Shown here: piece by piece, positions 37,923 to 60,585 of the stretch
Layout: the number at the start of each line of letters is the position of its first letter
Position numbering within the stretch: the stretch's first letter is position 1
Notes under the pieces: generated by a model
The model's database searches: none
Told to the model about the DNA's origin: nothing
Seen by the model: only the letters and a program-made list of their open reading frames with translations
Translations under genes and position numbers: made by a program
Source of the DNA: an uncultured Alphaproteobacteria bacterium
GTDB lineage: Bacteria; Pseudomonadota; Alphaproteobacteria; CAAGCB01; CAG-977
Direction of reading: 5' to 3'
Length of the DNA: 64,000 nt
Assembly (NCBI GenBank): GCA_937912005.1
Contig: CALDOX010000015.1
Coordinates: 180,303 to 244,302 of the forward strand

Positions 37923-40900
37923 CTACGCCTTTTCGATTTTGAACGTCACTGCCGCGTCACCGACATCTTCGGTATCGCCTTTCATATTCGCTTGTTCTTC
38001 AAACGAAACGGCAAGGACCTGTTCGGAAATGTACGCTTTGTTTTCCTTCAGGGCTTCCAGAACCGTATTATCGGCGGACGTGTAAGCCACCGTGATTCTG
38101 TCAGATACGTCAAAGCCCGAGTCTTTGCGTTTTTGCTGAATGACGCGCACGAAGTCGCGGGCGATGCCTTCGCGTTCCAGTTCGGGACGCAAGGTTACGT
38201 CCAAAACGACCACCGCCGTATTATCCGGCAGAGCCTGTCCCGCGTTGCCGTCTTTCAGGACAAGACGCAGTTCGAATTCTTCCGGCAACAAAGTCTGTCC
38301 GGCGATCGACAAAGTGCCGTCCGCGTTTTTCGACCAGTCGTTTGTTTTGGACGCGGCCAGAATGTCTTTCATGAACCGCCCCAAACGCTTGCCGACCAAC
38401 GGCGTGATGATGTAAAGCGTCTGATCGGCCAAATCGGAAACGTCTTTGCCGAACGCGACTTCCTTAACGTTTACTTCGTCTTTGATCAGGTCGATGTAAT
38501 CCGCCAGACGACCGGCATTGTTGCCCGCCACCGTCATGGAAGCCAACGGCAGACGGTTGCGCAGTTTGTGATCTTCGCGGATCGACTTCGCGGTCGAACA
38601 GACGGCGCGCACGAAGTCCATATCGGCGACAAGCTTGTCGTCCGCCGCAAAGGCGTTATAATCGGGATAATCCGTCAAATGGACGCTTTCCTCCCCCGTC
38701 AGGGCGCGGTAGATGTATTCGCACGTCAACGGCATCAGCGGCGCGATCGCCTTCGTCAGCGTTACCAAAACCGTATACAGCACGTCAAAGGCTTCCTGTC
38801 CGTTGGAAACGTCCCAGAAACGGGCGCGGGAACGGCGGATGTACCAGTTGTTCATCAGCTCCAGAAAATCGGACACGTCGGAACACGCGGCGACGATGTC
38901 GCAAGCATCCAGTTTTTCCGTCAGGCCTTTGACCAGCTCGCGCGTCTTTGCCAGAATATAGCGGTCCAGCACGTCTTTTGCCGTCGTCGTAAAGTTCGCT
39001 TTCAATCCTTCGGCGTTGGCGTACAGCGTGAAGAAGTAGAACGCGTTCCACAACGGAATCAAAGCCTTGCGGGACGACTTCGCGATTTCCTTGCCTTCGC
39101 GGTCGATCGACAGGTTGCCGCCGCGCAAAATCGGCGAGGACACCAAAAACCACCGCAGAGCGTCCGATCCCAGCGTGTTGAACACGTCGGTCGGATCGGG
39201 ATAGTTGCGCAGACGTTTGGACAGCTTTTGCTGATTCTCGTCCAAAACGACGCCGTGGCACAGACAGGTCTTAAAGGGGGCGCGATCAAACAGAGCCGTG
39301 CTCATCACCATCAGCGTATAGAACCAACCGCGGGTCTGCGCCAGATATTCGACGATGAAATCCGCCGGAGAATGGTTTTCGAACCATTCCTTGTTTTCAA
39401 ACGGATAATGGACCTGCGCGAACGGCATCGAACCGGATTCGAACCAACAGTCCAGAACGTCCTCGACGCGGCGCATCATCGACTTGCCGGTCGGATCGTC
39501 CGGATTCGGACGGACGAGCGTGTCGATGAACGGACGGTGCAGATCGGTTACTTTAACGCCGAAATCCTTTTCCAGTTCGGCGATCGAACCGTACACGTCC
39601 ACGCGCGGATACTTCGGATCGTCGGATTTCCACACGGGAATCGGCGTTCCCCAGAAACGGTTTCTGGAAATCGACCAGTCGCGCGCACCTTCCAGCCACA
39701 TTCCCATCGCGCCGTTTTTGACGTGTTCGGGGATCCAGTTGATCGTCTTGTTGTTTTCCACCATACGGTCGCGGAATTCAGTCACTTTGACGAACCAGCT
39801 GTTGATCGCCTTGTAGATCAGCGGCGTGTCCGTGCGCCAGCAGTGCGGATAGTTATGCTTGTACATTTCCTTACGAACCAATTTTCCTTCCGCTTTCAGG
39901 CGTTTGATGATCGGTTCGTTCGTTTCAAAGACCTGCATTCCTTCGTAATCCGGCACTTCTTTGGTAAAGCAGCCTTTGCCGTCAACGGGACAAATGACCG
40001 GAATGTCATACGGTTGGCAGGCGATCATATCGTCTTCACCGAATCCGGGGGCGATATGAACGATACCGGTACCGTCTTCGGTCGAAACGTAATCCGCCTG
40101 AATGATTTGGAAGCAGTTTTTCGTTCCCGCAAAGTAATCAAACAACGGCTGATAGGTGCGTCCGACCAAATCCGCGCCCCTGACCGTGCGGACTTTTTCC
40201 GCCTTGGCCAGTTCGCGCTTGTATCTGCCCGCCAACGCCTGCGCGATGACGTACTGAATGCCGTCCTCTTCGTAAACGTCGTAGTCGATATCCTTGTTGA
40301 CGCACAAAGCCAAATTGGACGGCAGGGTCCACGGAGTCGTCGTCCATGCCAACACTTTGACGGGCTTTGTTTCGCCTTCAACCGGATTCAGCGTGAACAT
40401 CACGGTTACGGACGGGTCTTCGCGTTCGCGGTACGAGTTGTCCATACGCGTTTCAAAGTTCGATACCGGCGTTTCGGCCGCCCAGCTGTAGGGCAAAATG
40501 CGGACGCCTTCGTACATCAGGCCTTTTTTGTACAGCTCTTTGAACGCCCAGATGATGGATTCCATATACGGCAGATCCATCGTTTTGTAATCGTTGTCAA
40601 AAGCGACCCAACGCGCCTGACGGGTAACTGTTTGCTCCCATTCGTTCGTGTACATCAGCACGCGTTCTTTGCACGTTTCGTTGAACTTGCCGATTCCGAA
40701 TTTGGAAATCGCGGCGCGTCCGGAAATGCCCAGAAACTTTTCCGTATCCATTTCCGCGGGCAACCCGTGGCAGTCCCAACCGAAACGACGTTCGACACGA
40801 CGGCCGCGCATCGTCTGATAACGGGGAATGATGTCTTTCACATATCCCGTGACCAAATGCCCGTAATGCGGCAGACCGTTCGCGAACGGAGGGCCGTCGT

Positions 40901-41060
40901 AAAACACATATTCGTTAGAGCCTTTTTCACCGGCGGCACGATTGTTGACGGACTTTTTAAAAGTGCCGTTCTCGCGCCAAAACTTTAAAATGTCTTCTTC
41001 CAAAGCCGGAAAATCGGCTTTCGGGCTGACTTCGGGATAATGTTTTATTTTTTCGGACAT
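37923..41060 (-). CDS. ileS: Isoleucine--tRNA ligase, type 2 (eukaryote-like).
   Basis: 1045 aa. N-terminus FYDGPPFANGLPHYGHLVTGYVKD (HIGH region) plus a KMSKS-type region. The length and sequence style match type-2 IleRS. Confidence 0.9.
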   Translation of the reverse strand: MSEKIKHYPEVSPKADFPALEEDILKFWRENGTFKKSVNNRAAGEKGSNEYVFYDGPPFANGLPHYGHLVTGYVKDIIPRYQTMRGRRVERRFGWDCHGLPAEMDTEKFLGISGRAAISKFGIGKFNETCKERVLMYTNEWEQTVTRQARWVAFDNDYKTMDLPYMESIIWAFKELYKKGLMYEGVRILPYSWAAETPVSNFETRMDNSYREREDPSVTVMFTLNPVEGETKPVKVLAWTTTPWTLPSNLALCVNKDIDYDVYEEDGIQYVIAQALAGRYKRELAKAEKVRTVRGADLVGRTYQPLFDYFAGTKNCFQIIQADYVSTEDGTGIVHIAPGFGEDDMIACQPYDIPVICPVDGKGCFTKEVPDYEGMQVFETNEPIIKRLKAEGKLVRKEMYKHNYPHCWRTDTPLIYKAINSWFVKVTEFRDRMVENNKTINWIPEHVKNGAMGMWLEGARDWSISRNRFWGTPIPVWKSDDPKYPRVDVYGSIAELEKDFGVKVTDLHRPFIDTLVRPNPDDPTGKSMMRRVEDVLDCWFESGSMPFAQVHYPFENKEWFENHSPADFIVEYLAQTRGWFYTLMVMSTALFDRAPFKTCLCHGVVLDENQQKLSKRLRNYPDPTDVFNTLGSDALRWFLVSSPILRGGNLSIDREGKEIAKSSRKALIPLWNAFYFFTLYANAEGLKANFTTTAKDVLDRYILAKTRELVKGLTEKLDACDIVAACSDVSDFLELMNNWYIRRSRARFWDVSNGQEAFDVLYTVLVTLTKAIAPLMPLTCEYIYRALTGEESVHLTDYPDYNAFAADDKLVADMDFVRAVCSTAKSIREDHKLRNRLPLASMTVAGNNAGRLADYIDLIKDEVNVKEVAFGKDVSDLADQTLYIITPLVGKRLGRFMKDILAASKTNDWSKNADGTLSIAGQTLLPEEFELRLVLKDGNAGQALPDNTAVVVLDVTLRPELEREGIARDFVRVIQQKRKDSGFDVSDRITVAYTSADNTVLEALKENKAYISEQVLAVSFEEQANMKGDTEDVGDAAVTFKIEKA

Positions 41061-49301: not shown

Positions 49302-52300
49302 TTATGCTTCCTGTTCTTCCGCTAATTTAGCCGCAGTAATGTAATCAAACTTGCCCGACCCCAAAACAGGCGGTTCTTTGACATAAATAAACTTGGACGG
49401 AGATCCGAGTTCGTTAAAGCCTTGATCTTTAATATAAGCTCTGATTTCAGACAGATCCGCATCCTGTTTCGTCGTAATCAAAACCAGCTTTTCACCCTTC
49501 TTCGGATCGGGAACGGAAACAAGTCCTTGCACCGCATCGGGATAAAGTTTTGACAACAACTGTTCTATCGCCGTCAAAGAAACCATTTCACCGCCGATCT
49601 TGGCGAAGCGTTTAGCGCGTCCCTGAATAAAAACAAAACCGTCTTTGTCAATCGTGACGATATCGCCCGTATCGTGCCATCCGTCTTTTGGCGGAATCAA
49701 AACACCCGGATTATCGGCTTTCATATAGCCCTGCATCACATTATCTCCGGAAACCAACAGCTTGGCTCCTTCTTTAATACCGGGAACTTCTTCCAATTTA
49801 GCCGCCATTTTTGGCAACAAGCGGCCGACGGAACCTTCACGAATATACATCGGCGTGTTTAAAGAAATAACCGGAGCCGTTTCCGTCGCGCCGTATCCTT
49901 CTAAAATACGGACGCCGAATTTGCGCATCCACAATTCGGACGTGCTCGGCTTCAACTTTTCGGCACCGACAATCGCATAACGCAGCGCAAAGAAATCGTA
50001 GGGGTGAGCCATTGCGCCATACCCCGCGAAGAACGTGTCCGTTCCGCACAAAACCGTCGCGTTTGTTTCATAAACCAATTCCGGCACAATACGATAATGC
50101 AGCGGAGACGGATAAAAGAATGTTCGTATCCCGGATAAAAGCGTTAAAATAGTGCCGACCCCCAAACCGAATGCATGGAACATCGGCAGCGCATTGAAAA
50201 ACACGTCAGCGGAAGTGATCGCAATCACGCTCAGCGCCTGATAACGGTTCGCTTGGAAATTCCGATGAGACAGCAGCACGGCTTTCGGCATACCTTCCGA
50301 TCCGGAAGTAAACATAATCGCCGCCGTATGGTCGGGGCCATTTTTCGGCTTCTTTGAAGTCAGATACGCCAATATTCCTTTCAGTTTATCCTCAAACAAA
50401 ACTTCCGAAGCGAAATCTTCCAGATAAACGACTTTGATGCCGTTTTCCTTTAAAGCTTCTTCCAGTTTTTCCAAATGAGCGTTTTCAATAAATTTCCTTG
50501 ATGTCAGAACGGTTTTCAGCTGCACCGTCTTCACACAGGAAACCACCTGCGCCACGCCGGTGGAAAAGTTCAGCATAGCCGGCACTTTATCAATGCTTTG
50601 CAAAGCGAAAAACGACACAACATTCGCTAAAACGTTCGGCAATAAAAGCCCCAGCCGTTCTTCGTCTTCAAAACAGCGCTCCATAGCTTTGCCCAAGACA
50701 TAGCTTTTCAAAATCAATGTCTTGTATTTAATCGGTTTTCGACTGACATCTTCCGCAATGATATGATTTTTGCCGTTGACCTTCGACGCGTTCAGCAACG
50801 AAACAAACAGATTTTCGTTAATCTTGGAAGATTCGTAAAGCATATCCGTCATCATATCGTAAAGCTGATTGGATATTTCGTGATTACGCTGACGACTTGT
50901 CCAGGACGGATCTATGTCAAACTTTCTGGGCGGCAGAATGTTCATAATGATTTTGGGGAAATAACGCGTTTTCACGCGGTCTTTCAGCAAAGAAAACTTG
51001 GAATACTGCGCCCCGTTGATACGAACGGGCAAAATATTGGCGTTCGCTTTTTCGGCAACCAGCCCCGCCCCTTCATAGACTTTCATCAATGCGCCCGTCA
51101 CGCTGATCCGGCGTTCGGGAAAGATCATCACTTTATTGTTTTTCTTGATCAAATCGACCAAAGAACGGATCGACAGCGGATTGTTCAAATCCAACGGATA
51201 CAGATCAATCATCAGGCTGAACAGTTTTGCAAACCATTTGTTTTCCCATTCCGGCTTAATCACAAAAGTGATTTTTTCAGGCATAAACGCCGCTATCAAC
51301 AAACCGTCCAGCAATGATGTATGATTGGCCACGATTAAAACGCGCTTGCCGGCCGCTTGGAAATTGGGTAATCCTTTGACCGTTACGCGGTAGAAAAATT
51401 CCAAAATCGTTTGAACGATCGACCGCAATAAAGCCGCGGGCAAAACGGAACAGTTATAAACAGACACGATAAAACTGGCAATTCCGGCGAATAAGAACAA
51501 AGCCGCGATACTTAAACCGGCATGACGCGCCGCGATAAAAATCAGCGCCATTAATGCGATCCCTGCCGCATTAATCAAATTGCCGGCGGCAAAAACGGTG
51601 GCTCTGTTCGCATCCGAAGCTTTGCTGCGGATCAATGCCGTTAAAGGGATAACATACATACCGCATGAAAACCCCGATAAAAACAGAAAAACGGAAAAAA
51701 AGATCACGCGCGGACGCAAAACAAATTCCGCAAACGAAGCCGTTTGAACCGGAGCTGCATATTCCGCCGTCAGGAAAAAAAGCATCATAAAGCAAATGCC
51801 CATTCCGATTGTACTGATCGGCACAAAAGTCGTATGCGCTATTCCTTTTAACAGCCGATGACAGTACATCGCTCCGGTGCCGACACCGGCCGCGTATAAG
51901 AGCAGCTGGAAAGCAACGGCAAAATTATCCGCATGAAAGACCTGTTCCGTCAACGGATAAACCTGCATAATCATCAGCAACCCGATGGACCAAAACCATG
52001 TTGTCCCCAATATGCTGCGGAAAATCAAAGGATACTTGCGCACAGTCCGCAAAGTTTTCCATATCCCGATCAGCATATCTTTCGGTGAATTGCTGCTGTT
52101 TTTTTCTTCCTGCTCATCTTTTATCGCATCGGCGGAAGAACGCCATGTCAAAAAGAACCCGATAACGGAAAAAACGATCAAAAAGGCGGCAGCCACTCTG
52201 ACGGGCACCAAAGTTCCGAGCAGCAACGCCGCTACGATACTGATATACGTTGTCTTTTCGATATACGCGTTTCCGGCCGTCAGATCACTTTCTTCCAGCT

Positions 52301-52673
52301 GATCGGGCTGAAAAGCGTAACGTATCGGTCCTAAAAAAGCGGACAGCGCCCCATATAAGAACGGCAGAAGAATCAACAAGCCGATGTTTTTCGTCAATAA
52401 AACGCTTCCGGCCAACAGCATTAAAGCCAATTCCGTTAAATTCAACGACAAGGAAGTTTTGATTCTGTTATATTTTTTCGCCAGTTGGGTTGCTCTGGCA
52501 GAAAATAAAAAGAACGGCAGAATCAACATACCGGCAACAATGTTATACGGATCGTCCGTCTGCTGTGTAATCCGGACGGCTATCATCGTTAACAAAGTAA
52601 TCCGGAACAAATTATTGGTCAGCGCCGAAATGATATGGGAAAATATCTCTGAACTTAACTTAGGCAGCGGCAT
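49302..52673 (-). CDS. aas: Fused lysophospholipid transporter LplT (MFS), 2-acylglycerophosphoethanolamine acyltransferase and acyl-ACP synthetase (Aas).
   Basis: 1123 aa. An N-terminal 12-TM MFS region, a central PlsC-type acyltransferase with the HXXXXD motif (VANHTSLLDG), and a C-terminal AMP-binding domain (TSGSEGMPKAV...GYGATE). Confidence 0.85.
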   Translation of the reverse strand: MPLPKLSSEIFSHIISALTNNLFRITLLTMIAVRITQQTDDPYNIVAGMLILPFFLFSARATQLAKKYNRIKTSLSLNLTELALMLLAGSVLLTKNIGLLILLPFLYGALSAFLGPIRYAFQPDQLEESDLTAGNAYIEKTTYISIVAALLLGTLVPVRVAAAFLIVFSVIGFFLTWRSSADAIKDEQEEKNSSNSPKDMLIGIWKTLRTVRKYPLIFRSILGTTWFWSIGLLMIMQVYPLTEQVFHADNFAVAFQLLLYAAGVGTGAMYCHRLLKGIAHTTFVPISTIGMGICFMMLFFLTAEYAAPVQTASFAEFVLRPRVIFFSVFLFLSGFSCGMYVIPLTALIRSKASDANRATVFAAGNLINAAGIALMALIFIAARHAGLSIAALFLFAGIASFIVSVYNCSVLPAALLRSIVQTILEFFYRVTVKGLPNFQAAGKRVLIVANHTSLLDGLLIAAFMPEKITFVIKPEWENKWFAKLFSLMIDLYPLDLNNPLSIRSLVDLIKKNNKVMIFPERRISVTGALMKVYEGAGLVAEKANANILPVRINGAQYSKFSLLKDRVKTRYFPKIIMNILPPRKFDIDPSWTSRQRNHEISNQLYDMMTDMLYESSKINENLFVSLLNASKVNGKNHIIAEDVSRKPIKYKTLILKSYVLGKAMERCFEDEERLGLLLPNVLANVVSFFALQSIDKVPAMLNFSTGVAQVVSCVKTVQLKTVLTSRKFIENAHLEKLEEALKENGIKVVYLEDFASEVLFEDKLKGILAYLTSKKPKNGPDHTAAIMFTSGSEGMPKAVLLSHRNFQANRYQALSVIAITSADVFFNALPMFHAFGLGVGTILTLLSGIRTFFYPSPLHYRIVPELVYETNATVLCGTDTFFAGYGAMAHPYDFFALRYAIVGAEKLKPSTSELWMRKFGVRILEGYGATETAPVISLNTPMYIREGSVGRLLPKMAAKLEEVPGIKEGAKLLVSGDNVMQGYMKADNPGVLIPPKDGWHDTGDIVTIDKDGFVFIQGRAKRFAKIGGEMVSLTAIEQLLSKLYPDAVQGLVSVPDPKKGEKLVLITTKQDADLSEIRAYIKDQGFNELGSPSKFIYVKEPPVLGSGKFDYITAAKLAEEQEA

Positions 52674-52896
52674 AGAAGCTCCTTATAAAAAATATACTTT
52701 CGTATTAATATTGTCTTTTTGCCCTGCTTTGTCCATAGGATTTTCCAAAAAATCGGTCAGATCAAAGAACCGTTGACATAATGAAGCTTTTTTGATAGAA
52801 AAATTGATCTTTCATTTTAACGGAGGTCTGAAGCGATGCAAAAATAAACAAACATTTCCGATCTTTTTGTTTGTTTTATTTATTGCGGAGGGCTTT

Positions 52897-54477
52897 ATGA
52901 CCGAAAATTTTCTTTCGTTTAACCATGTTTCTTATATTCTGCCGAACGGTGAAAAGCTGTTGTCGGACATTTCTTTTCATATCGGGTTCGATGAAAAAGC
53001 GGCTCTGATCGGCGCGAACGGGTCGGGAAAAACGACGCTGTTCCGTTTGGCCGAAAGGGTTCTTTTTCCGAACAGCGGCTCGATCAACTGCAATGAAACG
53101 CCCGCTTTTCTGCCACAGCATTTCAATCCGAACCAAACCGTTAAAGACGCTTTGGGCGTGGCGCGGATACTGGACGCGCTGGAACGCGTCGAAAACGGCG
53201 ACGGTTCGGCGGAGCTGTTTGATGTGATCGGACAGCGTTGGGATATTCGGTCGGAAACGCAAAAAGCTTTGGCGGATTTTAATTTAAGTCATATTGATTT
53301 AAACGCTTCTTTTGCGAATTTAAGCGGCGGAGAACGTGAAAAAATTCTGCTGTTGAGAATATTTCTTTCTTCTTCAAATATTTTAATGTTTGACGAACCG
53401 ACGAACAATCTGGATGAAGCGGCCAGAAATGCCTTCTATGATTATATTTCTTCAACGCCGAAAACAGTTTTGATCATTTCGCACGACCGGACTTTGTTGG
53501 AGAAAATGACCTGCTTATACGAATTGGCTGACGGAAAAATAAAAAAATACGGAGGAAATTACAGCTTTTATCAAGAAGCCAAAGCGAACGAAAAAGAACG
53601 TTTGGAAGACCAAAAATCCCGATTGGAAAGCCAAACCGCCAAACTATCCGGAGGACAGCGCGCCATTGAAGAATCCACAGGCAAGAAAAACCGCGCGGCC
53701 GAAAAACGCATCGAAAACAAAAAATACACTAAGATGCAAGCCAATTCGATGAAATCCGCCGCGCAGGAATCCAAAGCCAAGAAAATCAAAAAAATCGAGG
53801 AAAAACTGTCGCAGTCTCAAGAGGAATTAACTTCCGTCAAACTGGCTTTAAGGAATGAACAAATCAAAATCCCGATGCCCGAAAAGCCGTTTTTAAAAGA
53901 CAAGGTTCTGGAGCTGTCCGACGTGTCTTTCCGCTTCGGCGACAGAACGCTGTTTTCCGGCCTGAACCTGATTTTGAAAGGCGGGGAACGTCTGCTGATA
54001 AAAGGAGCGAACGGAGCGGGAAAAACGACCTTATTACGTTTGATTCTGGGACAAACGCCACCGACGGCGGGACAGGTTTTCCTATACGGGAAAGCCGCTT
54101 ATCTGTCGCAAAATCTGGAAATGCCGATCGAGGACGGAACCATACTGGACAACATTTTAAAAATGGCGCCCGAAGCTTCCGTCAACGAAGCTTATGCCGC
54201 TGCCGCGAACTTTCTGTTCAGGAACAAAGACGCCTTAAAAACCGTTTCGACGCTCAGCGGCGGGGAAAGGCTGAAAGCCGCTTTAGCCGCCGTTCTGGGA
54301 ACGAAAAATCAACCGGATTTGCTGATTTTGGACGAGCCGACCAATAACCTGGACATCCGTTCAACAGAAATATTGGAAACTGCCTTAAAAGCGTATCGGG
54401 GAGCACTGATTTTGGTGTCCCACGACCAAGTGTTTACGGAAAATATCGGCGGATTTCACATCTTAGAATTATCGTAA
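52897..54477 (+). CDS. ABC-F family ATPase (two tandem ABC domains, no TM domain).
   Basis: Two Walker A motifs (GANGSGKTT; GANGAGKTT) and two LSGGE signature motifs, separated by a Lys/Glu-rich linker. The start was chosen at MTENFLSF after GGAGGG. Confidence 0.8.
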   Translation: MTENFLSFNHVSYILPNGEKLLSDISFHIGFDEKAALIGANGSGKTTLFRLAERVLFPNSGSINCNETPAFLPQHFNPNQTVKDALGVARILDALERVENGDGSAELFDVIGQRWDIRSETQKALADFNLSHIDLNASFANLSGGEREKILLLRIFLSSSNILMFDEPTNNLDEAARNAFYDYISSTPKTVLIISHDRTLLEKMTCLYELADGKIKKYGGNYSFYQEAKANEKERLEDQKSRLESQTAKLSGGQRAIEESTGKKNRAAEKRIENKKYTKMQANSMKSAAQESKAKKIKKIEEKLSQSQEELTSVKLALRNEQIKIPMPEKPFLKDKVLELSDVSFRFGDRTLFSGLNLILKGGERLLIKGANGAGKTTLLRLILGQTPPTAGQVFLYGKAAYLSQNLEMPIEDGTILDNILKMAPEASVNEAYAAAANFLFRNKDALKTVSTLSGGERLKAALAAVLGTKNQPDLLILDEPTNNLDIRSTEILETALKAYRGALILVSHDQVFTENIGGFHILELS

Positions 54478-54635
54478 TGCGACACAGAGTTCACCGGCAA
54501 GCGTCCGTATTGCGGATTGCGTATCCTGCCAAAACGACAAAAACAATAGTGGTTGTTTGCCTCTCTTGTTCTGCTCATCAAAGACCGCGCCACTGGCGCG
54601 GACTTTAAGATGTTGCTGAAATAATCAACCAACAA

Positions 54636-54665
54636 AAGAGCCGCTCGAAAGAGCGGCTTTTTTTA
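54636..54665. terminator. Rho-independent terminator between the convergent ABC-F and zinc-ribbon/DUF805 genes.
   Basis: gagccgctc-gaaa-gagcggctt followed by TTTTTTT. Confidence 0.6.
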
Positions 54666-54667
54666 TG

Positions 54668-55426
54668 TTATCCCTTTGATAAAACGGCTATAATTGCAGA
54701 TATTATCAGTCCGAAAATAAAAATCAAAAAAAAGTCGCTAACGGTAAATTTTTCTGCTTTTTCTTTTTCAACATCTTCTTCACGTTCTTCTGTTTCATCA
54801 TTTGTTTTTCCATAATCTGATGCATCTTCGTTCTGTTCCTTAAATTTTTCTCCTTGTAGAAACAAAATACAGGCTTGATAATAAATCAATACGAGTGCCG
54901 CTATAATGTTAATCCCTTTTTCTCTGATAAATAAACCGCAGATCGGCGGAATCAGCATTACCCACAACGTAACATTTAAGTCTTTCAGTCTTTTTATATA
55001 TGATGACGCCAGCAACCAAATAAAGGCGACGGTTAACGGAACAACAACAAGTTTATAAATTTCAGGAACAGCCGTACACGGAACAACGATCGCAAAAAGC
55101 GCAATATAAACAATCACCCGCGCATAAAAATATTCCAATCGGGAATATGTACCGTCAAAAGAAAAATATTCCTTAAGGTCTTTTGAAAAGAACTTTCGAA
55201 ACATTTTCGGGAAACTGACAATTCCGTTTTCACAGTTCGAATAATCATAGTCGCCGTAATTTTCTTCTTCTGTTGTACCTTCATACGACGTCCATTCCGT
55301 CTCTTTCTCTTTTTCAATATCACCGACAGGCGTTCCGCAATACATACAAAAGTTTGCGCCCTGACGAATTTCTTTTCCGCAATTTGAACAAAACATCTTA
55401 TTTTTCCTCTTTGCTATGATCTTCAA
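54668..55426 (-). CDS. Zinc-ribbon plus DUF805-like integral membrane protein.
   Basis: N-terminal CSNCGKEIRQGANFCMYCG zinc ribbon, then RLEYFYARVIVYIALF, three or four TM helices and an acidic tail. The locus is about 35% GC. Confidence 0.55.
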   Translation of the reverse strand: MKIIAKRKNKMFCSNCGKEIRQGANFCMYCGTPVGDIEKEKETEWTSYEGTTEEENYGDYDYSNCENGIVSFPKMFRKFFSKDLKEYFSFDGTYSRLEYFYARVIVYIALFAIVVPCTAVPEIYKLVVVPLTVAFIWLLASSYIKRLKDLNVTLWVMLIPPICGLFIREKGINIIAALVLIYYQACILFLQGEKFKEQNEDASDYGKTNDETEEREEDVEKEKAEKFTVSDFFLIFIFGLIISAIIAVLSKG

Positions 55427-55997
55427 TCGCCTGATATTTTTCCGCTGCCGGTAATTTGGCGTTGTCTTTATCTTCCGGAGTCAGCGCGGCACATAAAGTT
55501 GTAGCCGCTGTTATTGCGTTTGTTGCCGTTATTCCCGCCTGCATACCGCCTCCCAATGCGGCCAGACCGCTTGTAGTTGCCGCCGCACCTGCCGTTCCCG
55601 TCGCTGACAAAGACGATACGACGCCGGCAGCGGCAACATTACCGATTGCAAATCCGACAGCGGCTTTCCCGATAAATTTCCCGCATTTTTCGGCTGTTTC
55701 AACGGTTTCCGGAGAAACGTCGCAAAACTCGCATACTTTTTTAGCCGCCAATCCGGTAGCGTCACCCGCTAAAACAATCGTTCCGTCAATAGCGGTTTCT
55801 GCAAAATCAGATACGGGAACGGACACGCCTTCTATAGTTGACGATATTTGATCGCTTACCTTTTGAAGCGATTTTTTTGTTTTAGCGTCATCTATAAAAC
55901 TGGCCGCCACATAAAATGCCGCTTTTTGGGCCGCATCAACGGAAACGGATGATAATTTAATGATATTTTTTGCTATTTTTCCGAATGTAAAAGCCAT
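55398..55997 (-). CDS. Hypothetical Gly/Ala/Thr-rich protein with glycine-zipper-like segments.
   Basis: 199 aa. The C-terminal half has GxxxG/AxxxA repeats (GFAIGNVAAAGVVSSLSATGTAGAAATTSGLAALGGGMQAGI). It overlaps the downstream gene by 29 nt. Confidence 0.45.
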   Translation of the reverse strand: MAFTFGKIAKNIIKLSSVSVDAAQKAAFYVAASFIDDAKTKKSLQKVSDQISSTIEGVSVPVSDFAETAIDGTIVLAGDATGLAAKKVCEFCDVSPETVETAEKCGKFIGKAAVGFAIGNVAAAGVVSSLSATGTAGAAATTSGLAALGGGMQAGITATNAITAATTLCAALTPEDKDNAKLPAAEKYQAIEDHSKEEK

Positions 55998-56292
55998 AAT
56001 GTTTCCCCATAGCCGAATAAAAAAAGACCGCCTTTCAGCGGTCGGGGAGTAGAAAAATCAGCTATACTTGATCCTTTTGACCTTTAAAGCCTGTCAATAC
56101 AAATCGGGGCTTCTGAACATACGTCAAAAGCTCCCCGAACCATCAATAAAGACAGTCGGGGATACTTTTCGTGTTTGCCATAAGCAAAACGAATAACGGC
56201 GCATCTCTGCACCGGTATAGCTAAAGAGTTTTTCTAGAACTCCGCACCCGCTAAGGCACTTTATCGACAACCCGATGTTGCCGATACAGAAA

Positions 56293-56322
56293 CAGAATGC
56301 CATTCTGTTGCTTTTTTTTCAA
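56293..56322 (+). terminator. Plus-strand rho-independent terminator in the intergenic region (orphan; possible 3' end of an sRNA).
   Basis: aacagaatg-c-cattctgtt perfect 9-bp stem followed by gcTTTTTTTT. There is no upstream plus-strand ORF. Confidence 0.4.
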
Positions 56323-56373
56323 GAAAGAAAAGACTGAACGGCTGTTTTCCCGTGATCTGTATTATATAAAAAA

Positions 56374-56399
56374 GCTCCCGATTTCTCGGGAGCTTTTTT
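56374..56399. terminator. Rho-independent terminator immediately downstream of ctrA.
   Basis: aaaaagctcccga-ttt-ctcgggagctttttt; A/T runs flank it on both sides. Confidence 0.6.
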
Positions 56400-57086
56400 C
56401 TAACCTTCTTTTTTCGGTTCGCGCAAAACGTAGCCGCGTCCCCAAACGGTTTCGATATAATCGTCCCCGCCGGTCGCTTCGGCGATTTTTTTGCGCAATT
56501 TGCAGATGAACACGTCAATAATCTTCAATTCCGGTTCGTCCATACCATTATACAGATGATTCAGGAATTGTTCCTTGGACAGTGTCGTTCCTTTCGACAG
56601 CGACAAACGTTCCAGAATACCGTATTCGCGGCCGGTCAGATGCAGCGGCTTGCCGTTGACGAACGCTGTTCTGGTATCCAGATTGACTTCGATCGCTCCG
56701 GTACGGATAACCGATTCCGGATGACCTTTCGACCGGCGAACCAAAGCGCGGATACGAGCGACTAATTCCGCCTTGTCAAACGGTTTCGTCAGATAATCGT
56801 CCGCACCGGTGGACAATCCCTTAACCTTTTTATCCGCGCCGGACAAACCGGACAGAATCAAAACAGGCGTGCTGATTTTAGATGCGCGCAGCCGCTTTAA
56901 CACTTCATATCCGTCCATATCCGGCAGCATTAAGTCTAAAATGATGATGTCGTAATCGTACAGCTTGCCGATTTCCAAACCGTCTTCACCCAAAACGGTC
57001 GGATCAACAACCATTCCTTCCTTATGCAGGACGGCTTCGATCGTCTGAGCCATCGCCTTGTCATCTTCAACCAATAAAACGCGCAT
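56400..57086 (-). CDS. ctrA: Cell-cycle response regulator CtrA (OmpR family).
   Basis: 228 aa, near-collinear with Caulobacter Ctr[10 protein letters not shown]..., D51 in [17 protein letters not shown], and a C-terminal [15 protein letters not shown]...[11 protein letters not shown]. Confidence 0.9.
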
Positions 57087-57116
57087 AGAATCACCCTTAT
57101 TCGAGGAAAAATAAAA

Positions 57117-57132
57117 TTAACTTCTTATTAAC
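57117..57132. promoter_or_regulatory. CtrA box (TTAA-N7-TTAAC) in the divergent ctrA/fliI intergenic region.
   Basis: TTAActtcttaTTAAC lies about 30 nt upstream of the ctrA ATG on the opposite strand and about 130 nt upstream of fliI. Confidence 0.55.
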
Positions 57133-57261
57133 TTTATGTTGTATGAATCTCAGATGCAAGCCTATATTTCAATGAAAAATAATTTTTTTTATTTTTTTGA
57201 TAAAAGGGCGACAAAGCATCAAGGAAAGATTATATTATAAATACAGCTTCGGGAATAAAGA

Positions 57262-58611
57262 ATGGACACTTATCTGAAAAACCTGATTGACGATATTGAT
57301 GCTTTGCCGGAATACCGCTGTTACGGTTCCGTTTGCGCGGTTAAAGGCATGCTGGTTGAAATATCCGGCATCCGCGCCGATTTGTCCGTCGGAGACAGAT
57401 GCTGTATCGGTGCGCGCGGCGATAAAAAAGTCGTCTGCGAAGTCGTCGGTTTCAATAATGACAAAGTGTTGGCGATGCCGTTTATGAATCTGGATGGCGT
57501 CGGTCCCGGCAATCCGGTAGATGTCAGCAATTCCCGTCCCGTCTTGTTTCCCGATGTGTCATGGCTGGGACGCGTCATCAACGCGATGGGCGAACCAGTG
57601 GACGGCAAAGGTCCTTTAATCAAAGGCAAAGTTCCTTGTCTGATTCACAACTCCCCTCCCCCAGCGCATTCCCGCGAGCGCGTTGCCGGCAAAGCCGATC
57701 TGGGCGTACGGGCGATTAACACTTTTCTGACGGTCTGCAAAGGGCAGCGTATGGGAATTTTCGCCGGTTCCGGCGTCGGCAAATCATCTTTGATGGCGAT
57801 GATGGCGCGCCATACGCAGTTGGACGTAACCGTTTTGGGATTGATCGGCGAACGTGGCCGCGAAGCCCGCGAATTTATTGAAGACGACCTGGGCGAAGAA
57901 GGCATGAAGCGCAGCGTCGTCGTCGTCGCGACTTCTGACGAATCTCCTCTGATGCGCCGACAGGCCGCCTATGTCGCGATGACCGTCGCCGAATATTTCC
58001 GCGATCTGAAACAAAACGTTTTATGTATGATGGACAGCATCACGCGTTTTGCCATGGCGCAGCGTGAAATCAGCCTGTCCGCCGGCGAACCGCCCGCAAC
58101 GAAAGGCTACACGCCGACCGTTTTCGCCGAACTGCCCCGATTGCTGGAACGCGCGGGACCGGGACCGATCGGCAAAGGTTCCATTACGGGACTGTTCACC
58201 GTGTTGGTGGACGGAGACGACCACAACGAACCGATCGCGGACGCCGTGCGCGGTATTTTGGACGGGCATATCGTTCTGGAACGCTCGATCGCCGAACGCA
58301 ACCGCTATCCGGCGATCAACCTGCTGCGCAGCATTTCCCGTACAATGCCGGGATGCAACAACGACGATGAAAACGCTCTGGTCAACCGTGCGCGGGCTTT
58401 AATGGCGACTTATCAGGATATGGAAGAATTAATTCGTCTGGGCGCGTACAAACGCGGTTCCAACGAACAGGTCGATGAATCGATTTTCTATCACGACAAA
58501 CTGGAAGCTTTCCTGTCGCAAAAGAAAAAGGAAAAATTCGATTTTGCGGCCGGTTATCAGCAGCTGAAAGACATTCTGGCGCAAAATCCTGCCGGCCCGT
58601 CTCAAAAGTAA
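57262..58611 (+). CDS. fliI: Flagellum-specific ATPase FliI.
   Basis: 449 aa. Walker A GSGVGKSSL, Walker B LCMMDSITR, F1/T3SS ATPase family. Confidence 0.9.
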   Translation: MDTYLKNLIDDIDALPEYRCYGSVCAVKGMLVEISGIRADLSVGDRCCIGARGDKKVVCEVVGFNNDKVLAMPFMNLDGVGPGNPVDVSNSRPVLFPDVSWLGRVINAMGEPVDGKGPLIKGKVPCLIHNSPPPAHSRERVAGKADLGVRAINTFLTVCKGQRMGIFAGSGVGKSSLMAMMARHTQLDVTVLGLIGERGREAREFIEDDLGEEGMKRSVVVVATSDESPLMRRQAAYVAMTVAEYFRDLKQNVLCMMDSITRFAMAQREISLSAGEPPATKGYTPTVFAELPRLLERAGPGPIGKGSITGLFTVLVDGDDHNEPIADAVRGILDGHIVLERSIAERNRYPAINLLRSISRTMPGCNNDDENALVNRARALMATYQDMEELIRLGAYKRGSNEQVDESIFYHDKLEAFLSQKKKEKFDFAAGYQQLKDILAQNPAGPSQK

Positions 58612-58621
58612 AAGGTAGCGA

Positions 58622-59080
58622 ATGGCCGGCAAAGATTTAAAAACCCTTATCCGTGTCCACAAGTTCGAACTGGACGAAAAACAAAGGCAGCTTGGCAACT
58701 TGCTGCGGTTTGAACAAGCTTTGCAAAACCGCAAAATCCTATTGGCCAAACGCTTTGTTGAAGAGGAGGAAGCCGCGAACTCCAGCCCTATTGCCGCTCT
58801 GACATTCGGAGCTTATGTCGATTGGCATGTTGAAGAAAACAAACGCGTTGACCGCGCCTTGGAGGAAAACAGACAGGAAATTCTGTTGATGCGCGACGAA
58901 ATCATCGAAGCGTATCAGGAGTTGAAAACTCTTGAAATCACGCAAGAAAATCGTGATAAACGCGAATTGGCTGAACTGGAACGCAAAACAAACGCCATGC
59001 TGGACGAAATCGGTCTGACCCTATACCGCCGCCGTCAGGAAACGGACAGAGAAGACGAAAAAAACAATGACGTTTCCTGA
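58622..59080 (+). CDS. fliJ: Flagellar export chaperone FliJ-like coiled-coil protein.
   Basis: 152 aa, charged and coiled-coil, immediately downstream of fliI. Confidence 0.55.
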   Translation: MAGKDLKTLIRVHKFELDEKQRQLGNLLRFEQALQNRKILLAKRFVEEEEAANSSPIAALTFGAYVDWHVEENKRVDRALEENRQEILLMRDEIIEAYQELKTLEITQENRDKRELAELERKTNAMLDEIGLTLYRRRQETDREDEKNNDVS

Positions 59081-59172: not shown

Positions 59173-60585
59173 ATGAACAAAAAATTAAAGCACTCCTTAT
59201 TATTATCCATTTATATCTTGGGATATACAAGCCTGTCTTTTGAACTGATTATTCTCAGACAATTTGTCAATTTTGTCGGTTCAAATACTTTGATCACGTC
59301 TATTATTATGGCGTTTATTCTGATGTTTTTGTCTCTCGGGTATTATTTGGGCTCTGTAATTCGTTTTTCAAAACACCCTATTCGAAAAAATATCATTAAA
59401 ACAGTTTATTGTCTCTCCGGCTGGTATATTTTAGCCTGCTCATTTCCAATCATCGGCAGCTTGTTTTACATACTGTATTCTTCAGGAATAACCTCCGCCA
59501 CCGCTCAAGTGACAATTATGTCATTGATCTTATTAATTTTCCCCTCTGTCGGCTTAGGATTTATCACATCCGTTATAGGCAGAATCGTCCACCATTCCGA
59601 TTCAAATTACACGGGACGCTTTATGGCTGTCGATACTCTCGGCAGCGTATCGGGATCTTTATTGACCACATTATTTTTTATGCCGTTATTAGGCGTATAT
59701 GCGGCCACAACTCTTCTGGTTTTTTTAACCGCCTGCGTTTTATTGTTGCTTTCCCCCTCCCGAAAAAAAATTTTTTCCCTTTCCTTTGTTGTTCTTATAA
59801 CAGCCGCCGCCCTTTTCAGCTCTAATGAAAAATTGCTGCAAAAAGATTCTTCTTTGGTTCTGGACGATGCCGTTTCAAGAATAGAAATTGTCGAAACAGA
59901 TCAGACCGACGGAGAATTTTTATCCAAACAAATGTTCATCAACGGCTCAAATTCTTCAAAAATATCCAAAAAAGACGACTTGATGTTCGGATACATAAAC
60001 TACATCAACAACACTTTTATCAATACGCTGCCTGCCGATAAAGTTCATAACATTCTTGTTCTGGGCGCCGGCGGTTTTACGGCCGGAAAAGACGACACGA
60101 GAAACAATTATGTTTATCTTGACGTCGTTAAAAACCTGAAACAGATTTCAGAAGATCTTTTCTTGGACGAACCGCTGACAAAAAACAAAACGTTTATCGC
60201 TCAAGACGCTTATCTGTTCATGCTTAAAGACAAGAAAAAATACGATCTGATATTAGTGGACGTTTATTCGGCACAGCGCAACATTCCCGTTAATTTTGTC
60301 ACGGCGGATTTCTTTGAAATGGTCAAAAACCATCTGGAAAAAAACGGTGTTATGCTTGTCAACATTATCACTTCGCCGTCATTTAAAAACAAATATGCGG
60401 CAAGATTGGACAACACGCTCCGTTCGGTTTTCCCACACTATTTATCCAGACAAATCATAGCAGGGAAACGGTCTTATAATCCATATGCGGACGATCTGCG
60501 CAATATCATATACACTTATTACAATTATCCGTATGATAACGGAATTTACACTCTGAACAAGAATTCGGCCGTCTTTGGTCAATAA
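59173..60585 (+). CDS. Membrane-anchored spermidine/spermine synthase-family protein (polytopic N-terminus fused to an aminopropyltransferase-like domain).
   Basis: 6-7 N-terminal TM helices. The C-terminal region carries VLGAGGFTAGKDD and YDLILVDVYSA, resembling spermine_synth family motifs. Local GC is about 35%. Confidence 0.6.
   Translation: MNKKLKHSLLLSIYILGYTSLSFELIILRQFVNFVGSNTLITSIIMAFILMFLSLGYYLGSVIRFSKHPIRKNIIKTVYCLSGWYILACSFPIIGSLFYILYSSGITSATAQVTIMSLILLIFPSVGLGFITSVIGRIVHHSDSNYTGRFMAVDTLGSVSGSLLTTLFFMPLLGVYAATTLLVFLTACVLLLLSPSRKKIFSLSFVVLITAAALFSSNEKLLQKDSSLVLDDAVSRIEIVETDQTDGEFLSKQMFINGSNSSKISKKDDLMFGYINYINNTFINTLPADKVHNILVLGAGGFTAGKDDTRNNYVYLDVVKNLKQISEDLFLDEPLTKNKTFIAQDAYLFMLKDKKKYDLILVDVYSAQRNIPVNFVTADFFEMVKNHLEKNGVMLVNIITSPSFKNKYAARLDNTLRSVFPHYLSRQIIAGKRSYNPYADDLRNIIYTYYNYPYDNGIYTLNKNSAVFGQ

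What the first reader, a model, noticed from the sequence alone, without database searches (positions are those of the whole stretch)
54668..55997. Low-GC two-gene islet: glycine-zipper protein overlapping a zinc-ribbon/DUF805 membrane protein
This stretch is about 35-40% GC against about 48% for the neighbours. The two minus-strand genes overlap by 29 nt. The upstream one encodes a 199-aa protein whose C-terminal half is a continuous run of GxxxG/AxxxA small-residue repeats. That is the signature of glycine-zipper membrane-inserting peptides, as in Colicin V/microcin-like and OmpA-like glycine-zipper toxins. The downstream one is a zinc-ribbon/DUF805 polytopic membrane protein with an acidic tail.

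The pair is bracketed by strong terminators on both sides. It looks like a horizontally acquired toxin/immunity or membrane-stress module rather than core metabolism. No integrase or tRNA marks the boundary.
Basis: partly seen in the sequence, partly recalled or inferred. Interest (0 to 1): 0.6.

Follow-up and report, generated by a model that had tools for sequence, protein, structure and literature searches.

The report
Swappable membrane-gene cassette behind conserved leader RNA
The two genes are real, but they look less like a toxin/immunity pair than like one of many interchangeable cell-envelope gene cassettes that uncultured gut Alphaproteobacteria place behind a shared, structured 274-nt leader RNA that matches no Rfam 15 family and ends in a transcription terminator.

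Summary
The ORFs are real: geneA (55997-55398, 199 aa) and geneB, a Zn-ribbon/DUF805 membrane protein.

Three details in the finding are wrong or incomplete:
- GeneB most likely starts at ATG 55396 (242 aa). That leaves a 1-nt gap, not a 29-nt overlap.
- Only geneB is low in total GC. Both genes do have the lowest GC3 in the window.
- The glycine-zipper label fails. No family matches, and the small-residue spacing is no more than composition predicts.

The main result concerns the "upstream terminator". It is the 3' end of a conserved 274-nt structured leader RNA (56291-56018, minus strand).
- The leader has its own promoter-like site and matches no Rfam 15 family.
- Covariation supports its fold in 39 non-redundant copies.
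- In 40 of 40 cases a same-strand ORF starts within about 60 nt of its terminator.
- The downstream genes include autotransporters, glycosyltransferases, a LicD-domain protein, lipoproteins and this pair.

Close relatives keep the same flanks and the same leader but carry a different gene in place of geneA-geneB. The junctions lie at the leader's U-run and at a 3' terminator. The window also keeps an 18-codon relic of the pair's neighbouring gene in another relative.

So this is a strain-variable, low-GC3 envelope cassette at a leader-controlled expression site. Toxin/immunity is not supported. The leader's signal and the proteins' function remain unknown.

The parts
56294..56322 (-). Promoter-like site of the leader: -35 TTGAAA (56322-56317), 17-nt spacer, -10 CATTCT (56299-56294)
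   Evidence: Read from the sequence. The pattern TTGNNN-N16-18-[TCG]A[TC]N[CT]T (typically CTTGNN-N17-TATNCT) sits at the same place in 24 of 41 non-redundant leaders, and low-GC variants carry TTGCAA-N17-TATAAT. It is a consensus match only; no transcription data were available.
56018..56291 (-). Conserved structured leader RNA (274 model positions) in the 5' UTR of geneA-geneB
   Evidence: The covariance model R1 hits here at 214.7 bits, and this is its only hit in the 64-kb window. On 39 non-redundant copies, 69 pairs in 10 helices are 91.2% paired, against 39-51% in slid controls. Thirty-two pairs show double changes, against 14-18 in slid controls, and 0 of 500 shuffles reach the observed values. 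No Rfam 15 match was found here or in 14 other loci. The single-sequence MFE of -113.7 kcal/mol reproduces the consensus fold.
56046..56243 (-). Long-range closing helix of the leader: GGAG-N3-UAGAAAAA (56243-56228) pairs with UUUUUCUA-CUCC (56058-56046)
   Evidence: This is the strongest covariation in the element. For example, pair 71:302 is AU 21, UA 11, GC 4 and CG 1, and pair 72:301 is AU 26 and CG 12.
56131..56164 (-). Hairpin A:B: UAUCCCCGA (56164-56156) pairs with GGUUCGGGGAG (56141-56131)
   Evidence: Helix 6 is 92.6% paired and nearly invariant. Segment B is also complementary to segment C (56049-56040), giving a possible antiterminator.
56019..56049 (-). Segment C (CUCCCCGACC, 56049-56040) overlapping the terminator stem GACCGC/GCGGUC (56043-56026), followed by the U7 run (56025-56019)
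   Evidence: The terminator scan finds the hairpin, and the stem covaries (GC 13, AU 12 at pair 318:334). B:C is 95.1% paired in 39 copies, but 7 of its 10 pairs never vary. In L015, L025 and L076 the stem is extended to CCCCG...CGGGG and covers the Shine-Dalgarno site.
55398..55997 (-). geneA: 199-aa protein with about four predicted long helices, then a Gly/Ala/Thr-rich weakly hydrophobic hairpin carrying the invariant motif GTAGAAATTSGLAALGG. Its Shine-Dalgarno site GGGGA lies at 56008-56004.
   Evidence: ORF. Eighteen close homologues of 55-98% identity, plus distant ones of about 190-210 aa. Motif. No Pfam, NCBIfam or PDB match. Hydropathy maxima of only 1.7 and 1.3. AlphaFold2 gave pLDDT 42-43, all helical.
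54668..55396 (-). geneB: 242-aa protein with an N-terminal zinc ribbon, an acidic linker, four DUF805 transmembrane helices, an acidic stretch and a C-terminal transmembrane helix. It starts 1 nt after the geneA stop codon.
   Evidence: Pfam Zn_Ribbon_1 and DUF805, both above cutoff. Start codon argument. Twenty-two homologues of the same architecture at 40-94% identity. Hydropathy.
54634..54663 (.). Bidirectional 3' terminator hairpin (AAAAGAGCCGCTC...GAGCGGCTCTTTT) that closes the cassette
   Evidence: Terminator scan. A similar hairpin follows the cargo in L024, L001, L004 and L012. In strain pairs, identity resumes at this hairpin immediately after the cargo stop codon.
54568..54624 (+). 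Relic of the 3' end of an ADP-forming acyl-CoA synthetase-like gene (VLLIKDRATGADFKMLLK plus stop)
   Evidence: Thirteen of 18 residues match the C-terminus of the 693-aa gene that lies convergent next to the pair in L012. The nucleotide match is 75% over 111 nt including the terminator. A stop codon lies upstream in frame, and the window holds no full copy.
54519..56018 (-). The replaceable segment: Shine-Dalgarno site, geneA, geneB, 3' terminator and the gene relic
   Evidence: blastn of window against L024, L099 and L101: homology covers 49317-54518 (74%) and 56019-59032 (84%) and is absent between them. L024 carries a 325-aa lipoprotein gene there instead.

Best explanation
The region is an expression site made of a promoter-like site, a 274-nt structured leader RNA that ends in an intrinsic terminator, and an exchangeable cargo. 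Here the cargo is geneA-geneB.

**Shown by the analyses**
- The leader is conserved and its fold is supported by covariation.
- It matches no Rfam 15 family.
- A same-strand ORF with a Shine-Dalgarno site always follows it directly.
- It precedes many different cell-envelope genes in related uncultured gut and rumen Alphaproteobacteria.
- Cargo differs between closely related strains at the same chromosomal site. The junctions lie at the leader's U-run and at a 3' terminator.
- GeneA-geneB is always found behind this leader.

**Inferred: how the leader works.**
- Transcription starts at the leader's own promoter and by default stops at the leader terminator. The MFE fold contains that terminator.
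- An unknown signal (a ligand, a protein or another factor) allows read-through.
- One possible route is pairing of GGUCGGGGAG with CUCCCCGACC. That pairing would remove 4 bp from the terminator stem.

**Inferred: what the two proteins do.**
- They are made in fixed ratio by translational coupling (stop codon, 1 nt, ATG) and act together at the inner membrane.
- GeneA would be a cytoplasmic helical domain anchored by a Gly/Ala-rich hairpin, with both ends in the cytoplasm.
- GeneB would be a polytopic DUF805 protein whose zinc ribbon faces the cytoplasm.
- Their biochemical role is unknown. The company they keep points to envelope or membrane remodelling, not to killing.
For: **Leader**
- It is conserved upstream of geneA in all 13 loci that carry the pair.
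- Structure statistics: 91.2% of cells paired against 39-51% in slid controls, 32 pairs with double changes against 14-18, and 0 of 500 shuffles reaching the observed values.
- The covariance model scores 214.7 bits in the window.
- Ninety-five metagenome stretches hold the exact 21-base core.
- In 40 of 40 non-redundant copies a same-strand ORF starts no more than 61 nt after the terminator stem.

**Cargo families**
- Autotransporter beta-domain, GT2 plus phosphoribosyltransferase, LicD plus cytidylyltransferase, TRL lipoprotein, an SNase-like protein, and unnamed secreted proteins and lipoproteins.

**Cassette exchange**
- Window against L024, L099 and L101.
- L004 against L039, with flanks 97-99% identical: 1402 bp of geneA-geneB against 317 bp holding a TRL lipoprotein gene.
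- L022 against L018, and L001 against L029.
- Exact junctions.
- Leaders 95-99.6% identical precede different cargo.
- Relic of the former neighbouring gene.

**Composition**
- The pair's GC3 stays at 0.28-0.46 in every host.
- Cargo GC3 is below that of the flanking genes in 14 of 16 loci.

**Topology and coupling**
- Hydropathy profiles.
- Family members are fused after the hairpin to two zinc ribbons (P0097), or to a further transmembrane helix plus a PG_binding_1 domain (P0065).
- A PLDc_2 fusion (P0072) and a PLDc_2 neighbour in Acinetobacter (L007) point to a membrane or lipid context.
Against: - No transcript data exist, so the promoter, termination and read-through are all inferred.
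- The proposed antiterminator is 10 kcal/mol less stable than the terminated fold in this copy (-103.4 against -113.7 kcal/mol).
- That antiterminator shows almost no covariation: 7 of its 10 pairs are invariant.
- All extra leader copies were found with one exact 21-base core. The sample is therefore biased towards relatives, and the sequences are not independent.
- The function of geneA is unresolved. Two AlphaFold2 runs gave pLDDT 42-43.
- Interaction between geneA and geneB rests on gene order and on one fusion example.
- The mechanism of cassette exchange is unknown. No recombinase was seen.
- Metagenome contigs could contain assembly errors. Against that, the same junctions recur in at least four independent strain pairs.
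Confidence: 0.7

Rival explanations
1. Toxin/immunity module. GeneA would be a membrane-inserting glycine-zipper-like toxin, and the DUF805 protein would protect the producer.
For: - GeneA has a small-residue-rich two-helix hydrophobic region.
- It gives a weak PADLOC "2TM effector" match (E 0.01, 13.9 bits).
- The two genes are tightly coupled.
- The pair has low GC3 and is present in some strains and absent in others.
Against: - No glycine-zipper, bacteriocin or colicin model matches at E <= 1, and there is no PDB relative.
- The small-residue spacing is not above what composition gives.
- There is no signal peptide or double-glycine leader by inspection.
- Hydrophobicity is marginal, with a maximum of 1.7.
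- Five distant homologues in other bacteria stand alone, with no partner gene.
- The alternative cargo at the same sites is lipoprotein genes.
- GeneA is the slower-evolving of the two genes: 68% against 49% identity in L001.
Confidence: 0.1
2. The 274-nt element is an independent small RNA gene with its own terminator. On this view geneA-geneB merely lies downstream and is transcribed separately.
For: - The element has its own promoter-like site and a strong terminator.
- Its MFE fold is a closed structure followed by the terminator.
Against: - Only about 22 nt separate the U-run from the geneA ATG, and they hold the Shine-Dalgarno site. That leaves no room for a promoter.
- In 40 of 40 non-redundant copies a same-strand ORF follows within 61 nt.
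- In three variants the terminator stem covers the Shine-Dalgarno site.
- The two roles are not exclusive. A terminated leader could also act in trans.
Confidence: 0.1
3. Recent horizontal acquisition from a distant low-GC donor, such as a phage moron or a plasmid gene, with no connection to the leader.
For: - The pair has low GC3.
- GeneB matches a PHROG "membrane protein" moron family (E 1.2e-9).
- The chromosomal context differs between lineages.
Against: - All close homologues of both genes come from the same group of gut and rumen alphaproteobacterial assemblies.
- The pair is always fused to the lineage's own leader.
- Identity of 55-98% across lineages argues for long residence in the group.
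- No phage genes flank the pair.
- The leader core gives no hit in 2.9 million viral contigs.
Confidence: 0.1

Closest known systems
Terminator-type riboswitches and attenuator leaders, such as c-di-GMP riboswitches upstream of adhesin and motility genes (comparison from general knowledge)
   Same: A structured, covarying 5' UTR element with its own promoter ends in an intrinsic terminator just before the Shine-Dalgarno site and start codon. The same element stands in front of many functionally related genes, here surface and envelope genes. A conserved alternative pairing overlaps the terminator.
   Different: No Rfam 15 family matches at E <= 1 in the window region or at E <= 0.1 in 14 other loci. 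The ligand or factor is unknown. The terminator-proximal sequence is itself highly conserved, which is unusual for an expression platform. The antiterminator is not supported by covariation.
Shared leaders of surface-structure operons that act through processive antitermination, such as ops/JUMPStart with RfaH or the UpxY-dependent capsule leaders of Bacteroides (from general knowledge)
   Same: One conserved leader is reused in front of many operons for surface proteins and glycans within a lineage.
   Different: Those are short sequence elements read by NusG paralogues. This one is a 274-nt folded RNA with a built-in terminator. No NusG paralogue was sought or found.
Integron gene cassettes and expression-site switching of surface antigens
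   Same: A fixed promoter and leader sits in front of exchangeable, promoter-less ORF cassettes that differ between strains and have atypical composition.
   Different: No integrase and no attI or attC sites were seen. The cassette borders are two terminator hairpins. One crossover evidently fell inside a neighbouring gene and left a relic. Exchange could be ordinary homologous recombination between leader copies.
DUF805 (PF05656) inner-membrane proteins with an N-terminal zinc ribbon
   Same: GeneB passes both Pfam thresholds and has the usual four hydrophobic helices.
   Different: GeneB adds an acidic stretch and a fifth C-terminal helix. The family has no established function; 12 papers mention it, all in passing.
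Glycine-zipper membrane proteins and class II bacteriocins (Gly-zipper_Omp, Gly-zipper_YMGG, Bacteriocin_IIc)
   Same: GeneA has a hydrophobic region rich in Gly and Ala.
   Different: No model match, no zipper periodicity beyond composition, no secretion leader, and a cytoplasmic helical domain of about 100 residues in front.

Membership tests
Glycine-zipper / class II bacteriocin families | Match to a family profile (Pfam Gly-zipper_Omp, Gly-zipper_YMGG, Bacteriocin_IIc and similar) | tested here: not met
   No such family appears at E <= 1 for geneA or for any of the 42 family members scanned. The only matches are sub-threshold DUF7691 hits.
Glycine-zipper / class II bacteriocin families | Small-xxx-small periodicity beyond what composition gives | tested here: not met
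   Twenty pairs observed against 17.0 +/- 2.2 in 2000 shuffles; 227 shuffles reach 20.
Glycine-zipper / class II bacteriocin families | Secretion signal or double-glycine leader | tested here: not met
   The N-terminus MAFTFGKIAKNIIKLSS has no hydrophobic signal or GG motif by inspection. The first hydrophobic stretch begins at residue 108. No dedicated predictor was available.
Toxin/immunity gene pair | The toxin gene always travels with its immunity gene | tested here: inconclusive
   The genes are paired in all 13 alphaproteobacterial loci. Five distant homologues stand alone.
Toxin/immunity gene pair | Toxicity of one product, relieved by the other | not testable with these tools
   This needs expression experiments.
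DUF805 (PF05656) | Profile match above the gathering score | tested here: met
   33.2 bits against a cutoff of 25.7, residues 87-180 of the 252-aa form.
Zn_Ribbon_1 (PF13240) | Profile match above the gathering score, with CxxC...CxxC | tested here: met
   40.4 bits against a cutoff of 25. The sequence reads CSNC...CMYC.
Terminator-type riboswitch or attenuator leader | Conserved secondary structure supported by covariation | tested here: met
   91.2% of cells paired, 32 pairs with double changes, far above both controls.
Terminator-type riboswitch or attenuator leader | Located in the 5' UTR, with an intrinsic terminator directly before the regulated ORF | tested here: met
   Forty of 40 non-redundant copies. 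In the window the U-run ends 22 nt before the ATG.
Terminator-type riboswitch or attenuator leader | A mutually exclusive antiterminator structure | tested here: inconclusive
   The 10-bp B:C complementarity is kept in 95.1% of cells, but 7 of 10 pairs are invariant. The forced fold is 10 kcal/mol weaker.
Terminator-type riboswitch or attenuator leader | A defined ligand or factor that changes termination | not testable with these tools
   This needs in-line probing or transcription assays.
Any described RNA family (Rfam 15) | Covariance-model match | tested here: not met
   No hit on the element at E <= 1 in the window, and no hit at E <= 0.1 in 14 other loci.
Integron-type cassette system | Integrase gene and attI/attC recombination sites at the cassette borders | tested here: not met
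   The window flanks encode no recombinase. The borders are terminator hairpins, and one border lies inside a gene relic. Only the fetched flanks were examined.

The most novel reading that the evidence does not exclude
The 274-nt element would be a new class of ligand- or factor-responsive attenuator. It would define "expression sites" in uncultured gut Alphaproteobacteria. Promoter-less cassettes for surface and envelope proteins (autotransporters, glycosyltransferases, lipoproteins, geneA-geneB) would be swapped between strains by recombination that uses the leader and a common 3' terminator as borders. This would be an integrase-free, integron-like way to vary the cell surface under one common signal.
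Probability: 0.35. Interest if true: 0.85.

Novelty: new variant of a known kind. Interest (0 to 1): 0.65.

Why it matters
- A large orphan leader RNA controlling autotransporters, glycan-modifying enzymes and lipoproteins would give a handle on how an uncultured but common group of gut bacteria regulates its surface.
- It would also add a candidate riboswitch or attenuator class whose signal is unknown.
- Precise strain-to-strain replacement of cargo behind an unchanged leader is a directly testable case of modular surface variation.
- For the two genes themselves, the result redirects effort. They are better studied as a co-regulated membrane module than as a bacteriocin.

Tried and rejected
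- **Exact-sequence look-up of geneA.** Not on record.
- **AlphaFold2 on geneA.** Two runs, with 42 and 78 sequences, gave pLDDT 42.1 and 42.9. I ran no fold search because matches to such models would be meaningless.
- **PDB sequence search.** It returned only designed helical bundles at E >= 0.4.
- **DUF7691 and the Senescence domain.** Only sub-threshold hits: best 1.4e-4 in 16 of 42 members, and 0.002 in one member. Neither is used for assignment. No literature exists on DUF7691.
- **Leader-peptide attenuation.** I considered the short ORF starting at the invariant GUAUGUUCAGAAG. Reading that ORF in the aligned sequences, its length varies from about 8 to 22 codons, and the conserved bases include third codon positions.
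- **Invertible-segment (shufflon) model.** I considered flipping between geneA-geneB and the convergent TRL/288-aa genes. L004 against L039 shows replacement, not inversion.
- **Source of the relic.** I first suspected the 288-aa neighbouring gene, which does not match. The 693-aa CoA-ligase-like gene of L012 does.
- **CsrA-type GGA sites.** By inspection, the AAGGA stretches lie inside a covarying helix, so I did not pursue this.
- **Leader upstream of distant geneA homologues.** None.
- **Leader core in viral contigs.** None.
- **Literature.**
  - Full-text search linking structured RNA, autotransporters and Alphaproteobacteria found nothing relevant.
  - The human-microbiome catalogue PMC8040213 mentions neither in its main text.
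  - The first 200 of its 408 supplementary files do not contain the core sequence. This is not a complete exclusion.
Full report
**1. What is at the coordinates**

Two minus-strand ORFs occupy 55997-55398 (199 aa, "geneA") and 55426/55396-54668 ("geneB").

GeneB start and the claimed overlap:
- The longest form of geneB starts at TTG 55426 and would overlap geneA by 29 nt.
- ATG 55396 has a GAGG nine nt upstream. It puts the zinc ribbon at residue 2.
- Relatives use the same arrangement of stop, 1 nt, then ATG.
- The overlap is therefore an artefact of taking the longest ORF. The real arrangement suggests translational coupling.

Protein family matches:
- GeneB passes the Pfam thresholds for Zn_Ribbon_1 and DUF805.
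- GeneA matches nothing in Pfam, NCBIfam or PDB sequences.

Composition:
- Total GC is low only for geneB (35.9%). GeneA is 47.2%, the same as the window mean of 47.1%.
- Third-position GC is 0.321 (geneB) and 0.385 (geneA). These are the two lowest of 51 ORFs, whose mean is 0.507 with SD 0.066.

**2. The proteins**

*GeneA family*
- There are 18 close relatives (55-98% identity, 197-203 aa), from gut and rumen metagenomes and from assemblies titled Alphaproteobacteria or Rhodospirillales.
- More distant proteins of about 190-210 aa occur in other bacteria, including Acinetobacter pittii.
- A profile search of 1.84 billion cluster representatives finds 63 at E <= 1e-10.
- All share an invariant motif, GTAGAAATTSGLAALGG, set between two weakly hydrophobic stretches rich in Gly, Ala and Thr.

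*Why the glycine-zipper reading fails*
- No zipper or bacteriocin profile matches any of the 42 members scanned.
- Small-xxx-small spacing is no more frequent than in shuffled sequence.

*Structure and topology*
- Two AlphaFold2 runs stayed at pLDDT 42-43, so I claim no fold.
- Domain fusions in distant members are informative:
  - After the hairpin come either two zinc ribbons (P0097), or a further transmembrane helix plus a peptidoglycan-binding domain (P0065), or a PLD-like domain (P0072).
  - A PLD-like gene also sits next to the Acinetobacter homologue.
- These fusions fit a hairpin with both ends in the cytoplasm and a membrane or envelope context. They also tie the geneA domain loosely to zinc ribbons such as the one that opens geneB.

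*Partner gene and defence or phage libraries*
- Five distant homologues examined stand alone, with no DUF805 neighbour.
- PADLOC gives only a weak "2TM effector" match (E 0.01).
- PHROGs places geneB with phage "membrane protein" morons (E 1.2e-9).

**3. The upstream "terminator" belongs to a conserved leader RNA**

*Discovery*
- Similarity between the window and its relatives continues upstream of geneA through about 280 nt that hold no conserved ORF.
- This stretch is conserved in all loci that carry the pair. It ends in the hairpin and U-run at 56043-56019, 22 nt before the geneA ATG.
- It matches no Rfam 15 family, either here or in 14 other loci.

*Distribution*
- An exact scan for its 21-base core found 95 more stretches in metagenome contigs, many labelled human gut. 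It found none in viral contigs.
- Only three of those stretches carry geneA or geneB downstream.

*Structure*
- I analysed 39 copies that are less than 93% identical to each other. The consensus has 69 base pairs in 10 helices.

| Measure | Observed | Slid controls |
|---|---|---|
| Cells forming a standard pair | 91.2% | 39-51% |
| Pairs with changes on both sides | 32 | 14-18 |
| Cells with changes on both sides | 237 | 37-68 |

- None of 500 column shuffles reaches any of the observed values.
- The best-supported helix is long-range. It joins GGAG-N3-UAGAAAA near the 5' end to UUUUCUA-CUCC just before the terminator.
- A covariance model built from the alignment finds one copy in the window, 56291-56018, at 214.7 bits.
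- The single-sequence minimum-energy fold (-113.7 kcal/mol) reproduces the consensus, terminator included.

*Promoter*
- A promoter-like site stands at the same place in most copies. In the window it is -35 TTGAAA and -10 CATTCT, at 56322-56294.

**4. The element is a cis-acting leader**

- In 40 of 40 non-redundant copies with enough downstream sequence, a same-strand ORF starts no more than 61 nt after the terminator stem. Most have a clear Shine-Dalgarno site.
- In three variants the terminator stem is extended so that it covers the Shine-Dalgarno site.
- The downstream genes fall into these groups:

| Downstream gene family | Loci |
|---|---|
| Autotransporters | 20 |
| GT2 glycosyltransferase with a phosphoribosyltransferase domain | 14 |
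| geneA | 8 |
| Cysteine-rich secreted proteins | 8 |
| TRL-family lipoproteins | 3 |
| Unnamed 325-aa lipoprotein | 3 |
| LicD plus cytidylyltransferase protein | 1 |
| SNase-like protein | 1 |

- Smaller unnamed groups and singletons make up the rest. This is a cell-surface and envelope set.
- A possible switch exists.
  - GGUCGGGGAG normally pairs with an upstream UCCCCGA. It is also complementary to CUCCCCGACC, which overlaps the 5' strand of the terminator.
  - The complementarity is kept in 95% of cells. However, 7 of the 10 pairs never vary, and the forced fold is 10 kcal/mol weaker in this copy.
  - I therefore treat the switch as inference.

**5. The pair is a replaceable cassette**

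*Window against its closest syntenic relative*
- Contigs L024, L099 and L101 come from a close relative. The response regulator is 99% identical and the flagellar-type ATPase 92%.
- They align with the window over 49317-54518 and 56019-59032, but not between those stretches.
- In that gap they carry an unrelated 325-aa lipoprotein gene behind the same leader, which is 92% identical.

*Other strain pairs*
- L004 and L039 have flanks 97-99% identical. L004 holds 1402 bp of geneA-geneB where L039 holds 317 bp with a TRL lipoprotein gene.
- L022 against L018 shows the same replacement, and L001 against L029 diverges in the same way directly after the leader.
- Identity runs through the leader's U-run, is lost at the Shine-Dalgarno site and ATG, and returns right after the cargo stop codon at a 3' terminator hairpin.
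- Leaders that are 95-99.6% identical precede different cargo.

*The relic*
- Window 54568-54624 still encodes the last 18 residues and the stop codon of the CoA-ligase-like gene that lies next to the pair in L012.
- An in-frame stop cuts it off upstream, and the window holds no full copy.
- The pair therefore reached its present site together with a piece of its former neighbour.

*Composition across hosts*
- The pair's GC3 stays at 0.28-0.46 wherever it sits, while the host genes around it range from 0.57 to 0.73.
- Cargo genes in general have lower GC3 than their neighbours, in 14 of 16 loci.

*Mobility markers*
- There is no tRNA in the window, and no recombinase gene in the flanks.

**6. 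Verdict**

The genes, the domains and both hairpins are real. The overlap, the GC statement and the zipper periodicity need correction.
The unit is indeed mobile and compositionally odd. The toxin/immunity idea has no positive evidence and several points against it.
- The best-supported picture is a strain-variable membrane-protein cassette at an expression site governed by a structured leader with a built-in terminator, for which I found no prior description.
- What the leader senses, how cassettes are exchanged, and what geneA and geneB do are all open.

**7. Caveats**

- All additional leader copies were found through one exact core, so they are related and the family's real breadth is unknown.
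- Model E-values are rough. The bit scores and the pair counts carry the argument.
- No expression data were available.
- Prior description outside Rfam cannot be fully excluded.

Noticed in passing
window 54568-54624 (+): An 18-codon relic (VLLIKDRATGADFKMLLK plus stop) of an ADP-forming acyl-CoA synthetase-like gene. The hairpin the terminator scan reports at 54601-54585 lies inside it.
   Followed up: yes
window 59173-60585 (+): A 470-aa ORF with low GC (38.4%; GC1 0.386) and no Pfam match, next to the flagellar-type ATPase gene and the 152-aa ORF after it. L024 holds a 52%-identical homologue whose matching DNA runs in the opposite direction relative to the shared flank. This may be another variable gene.
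   Followed up: partly
window 37923-41060 (-): A 1045-aa ORF with the highest GC3 in the window (0.687). Homologues at 58% identity lie in the loci whose leader precedes the 641-aa glycosyltransferase (L052, L062, L070, L098).
   Followed up: no
L004 6001-6625: The geneA copy in assembly GCA_021626415.1 matches in two reading frames (residues 1-150, then the remainder). This indicates a frameshift or a sequencing error. The database protein P0016 carries the shifted tail.
   Followed up: partly
L069 99-376 and 1065-1276 (both -): Two leader copies lie within 1.3 kb. The second is divergent (50.6 bits). Two contigs, ERZ808252.32 and ERZ808240.312, each hold two leaders with different cargo.
   Followed up: partly
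L015, L025 and L076, 3' end of the leader: The terminator stem is extended (CCCCGAGCCGC...GCGGUUCACGGGG), so the GGGG of the Shine-Dalgarno site becomes part of the hairpin. This suggests combined transcriptional and translational control in these variants.
   Followed up: partly
L007 3448-5588 (Acinetobacter pittii) and protein P0072: A PLD-like (PLDc_2) gene lies directly upstream of the distant geneA homologue. In another organism the two domains are fused in one protein.
   Followed up: partly
L005 7359-7952: In this relative a third gene (197 aa, no Pfam hit) follows geneB on the same strand after a 13-nt gap. It may belong to the cassette there.
   Followed up: no
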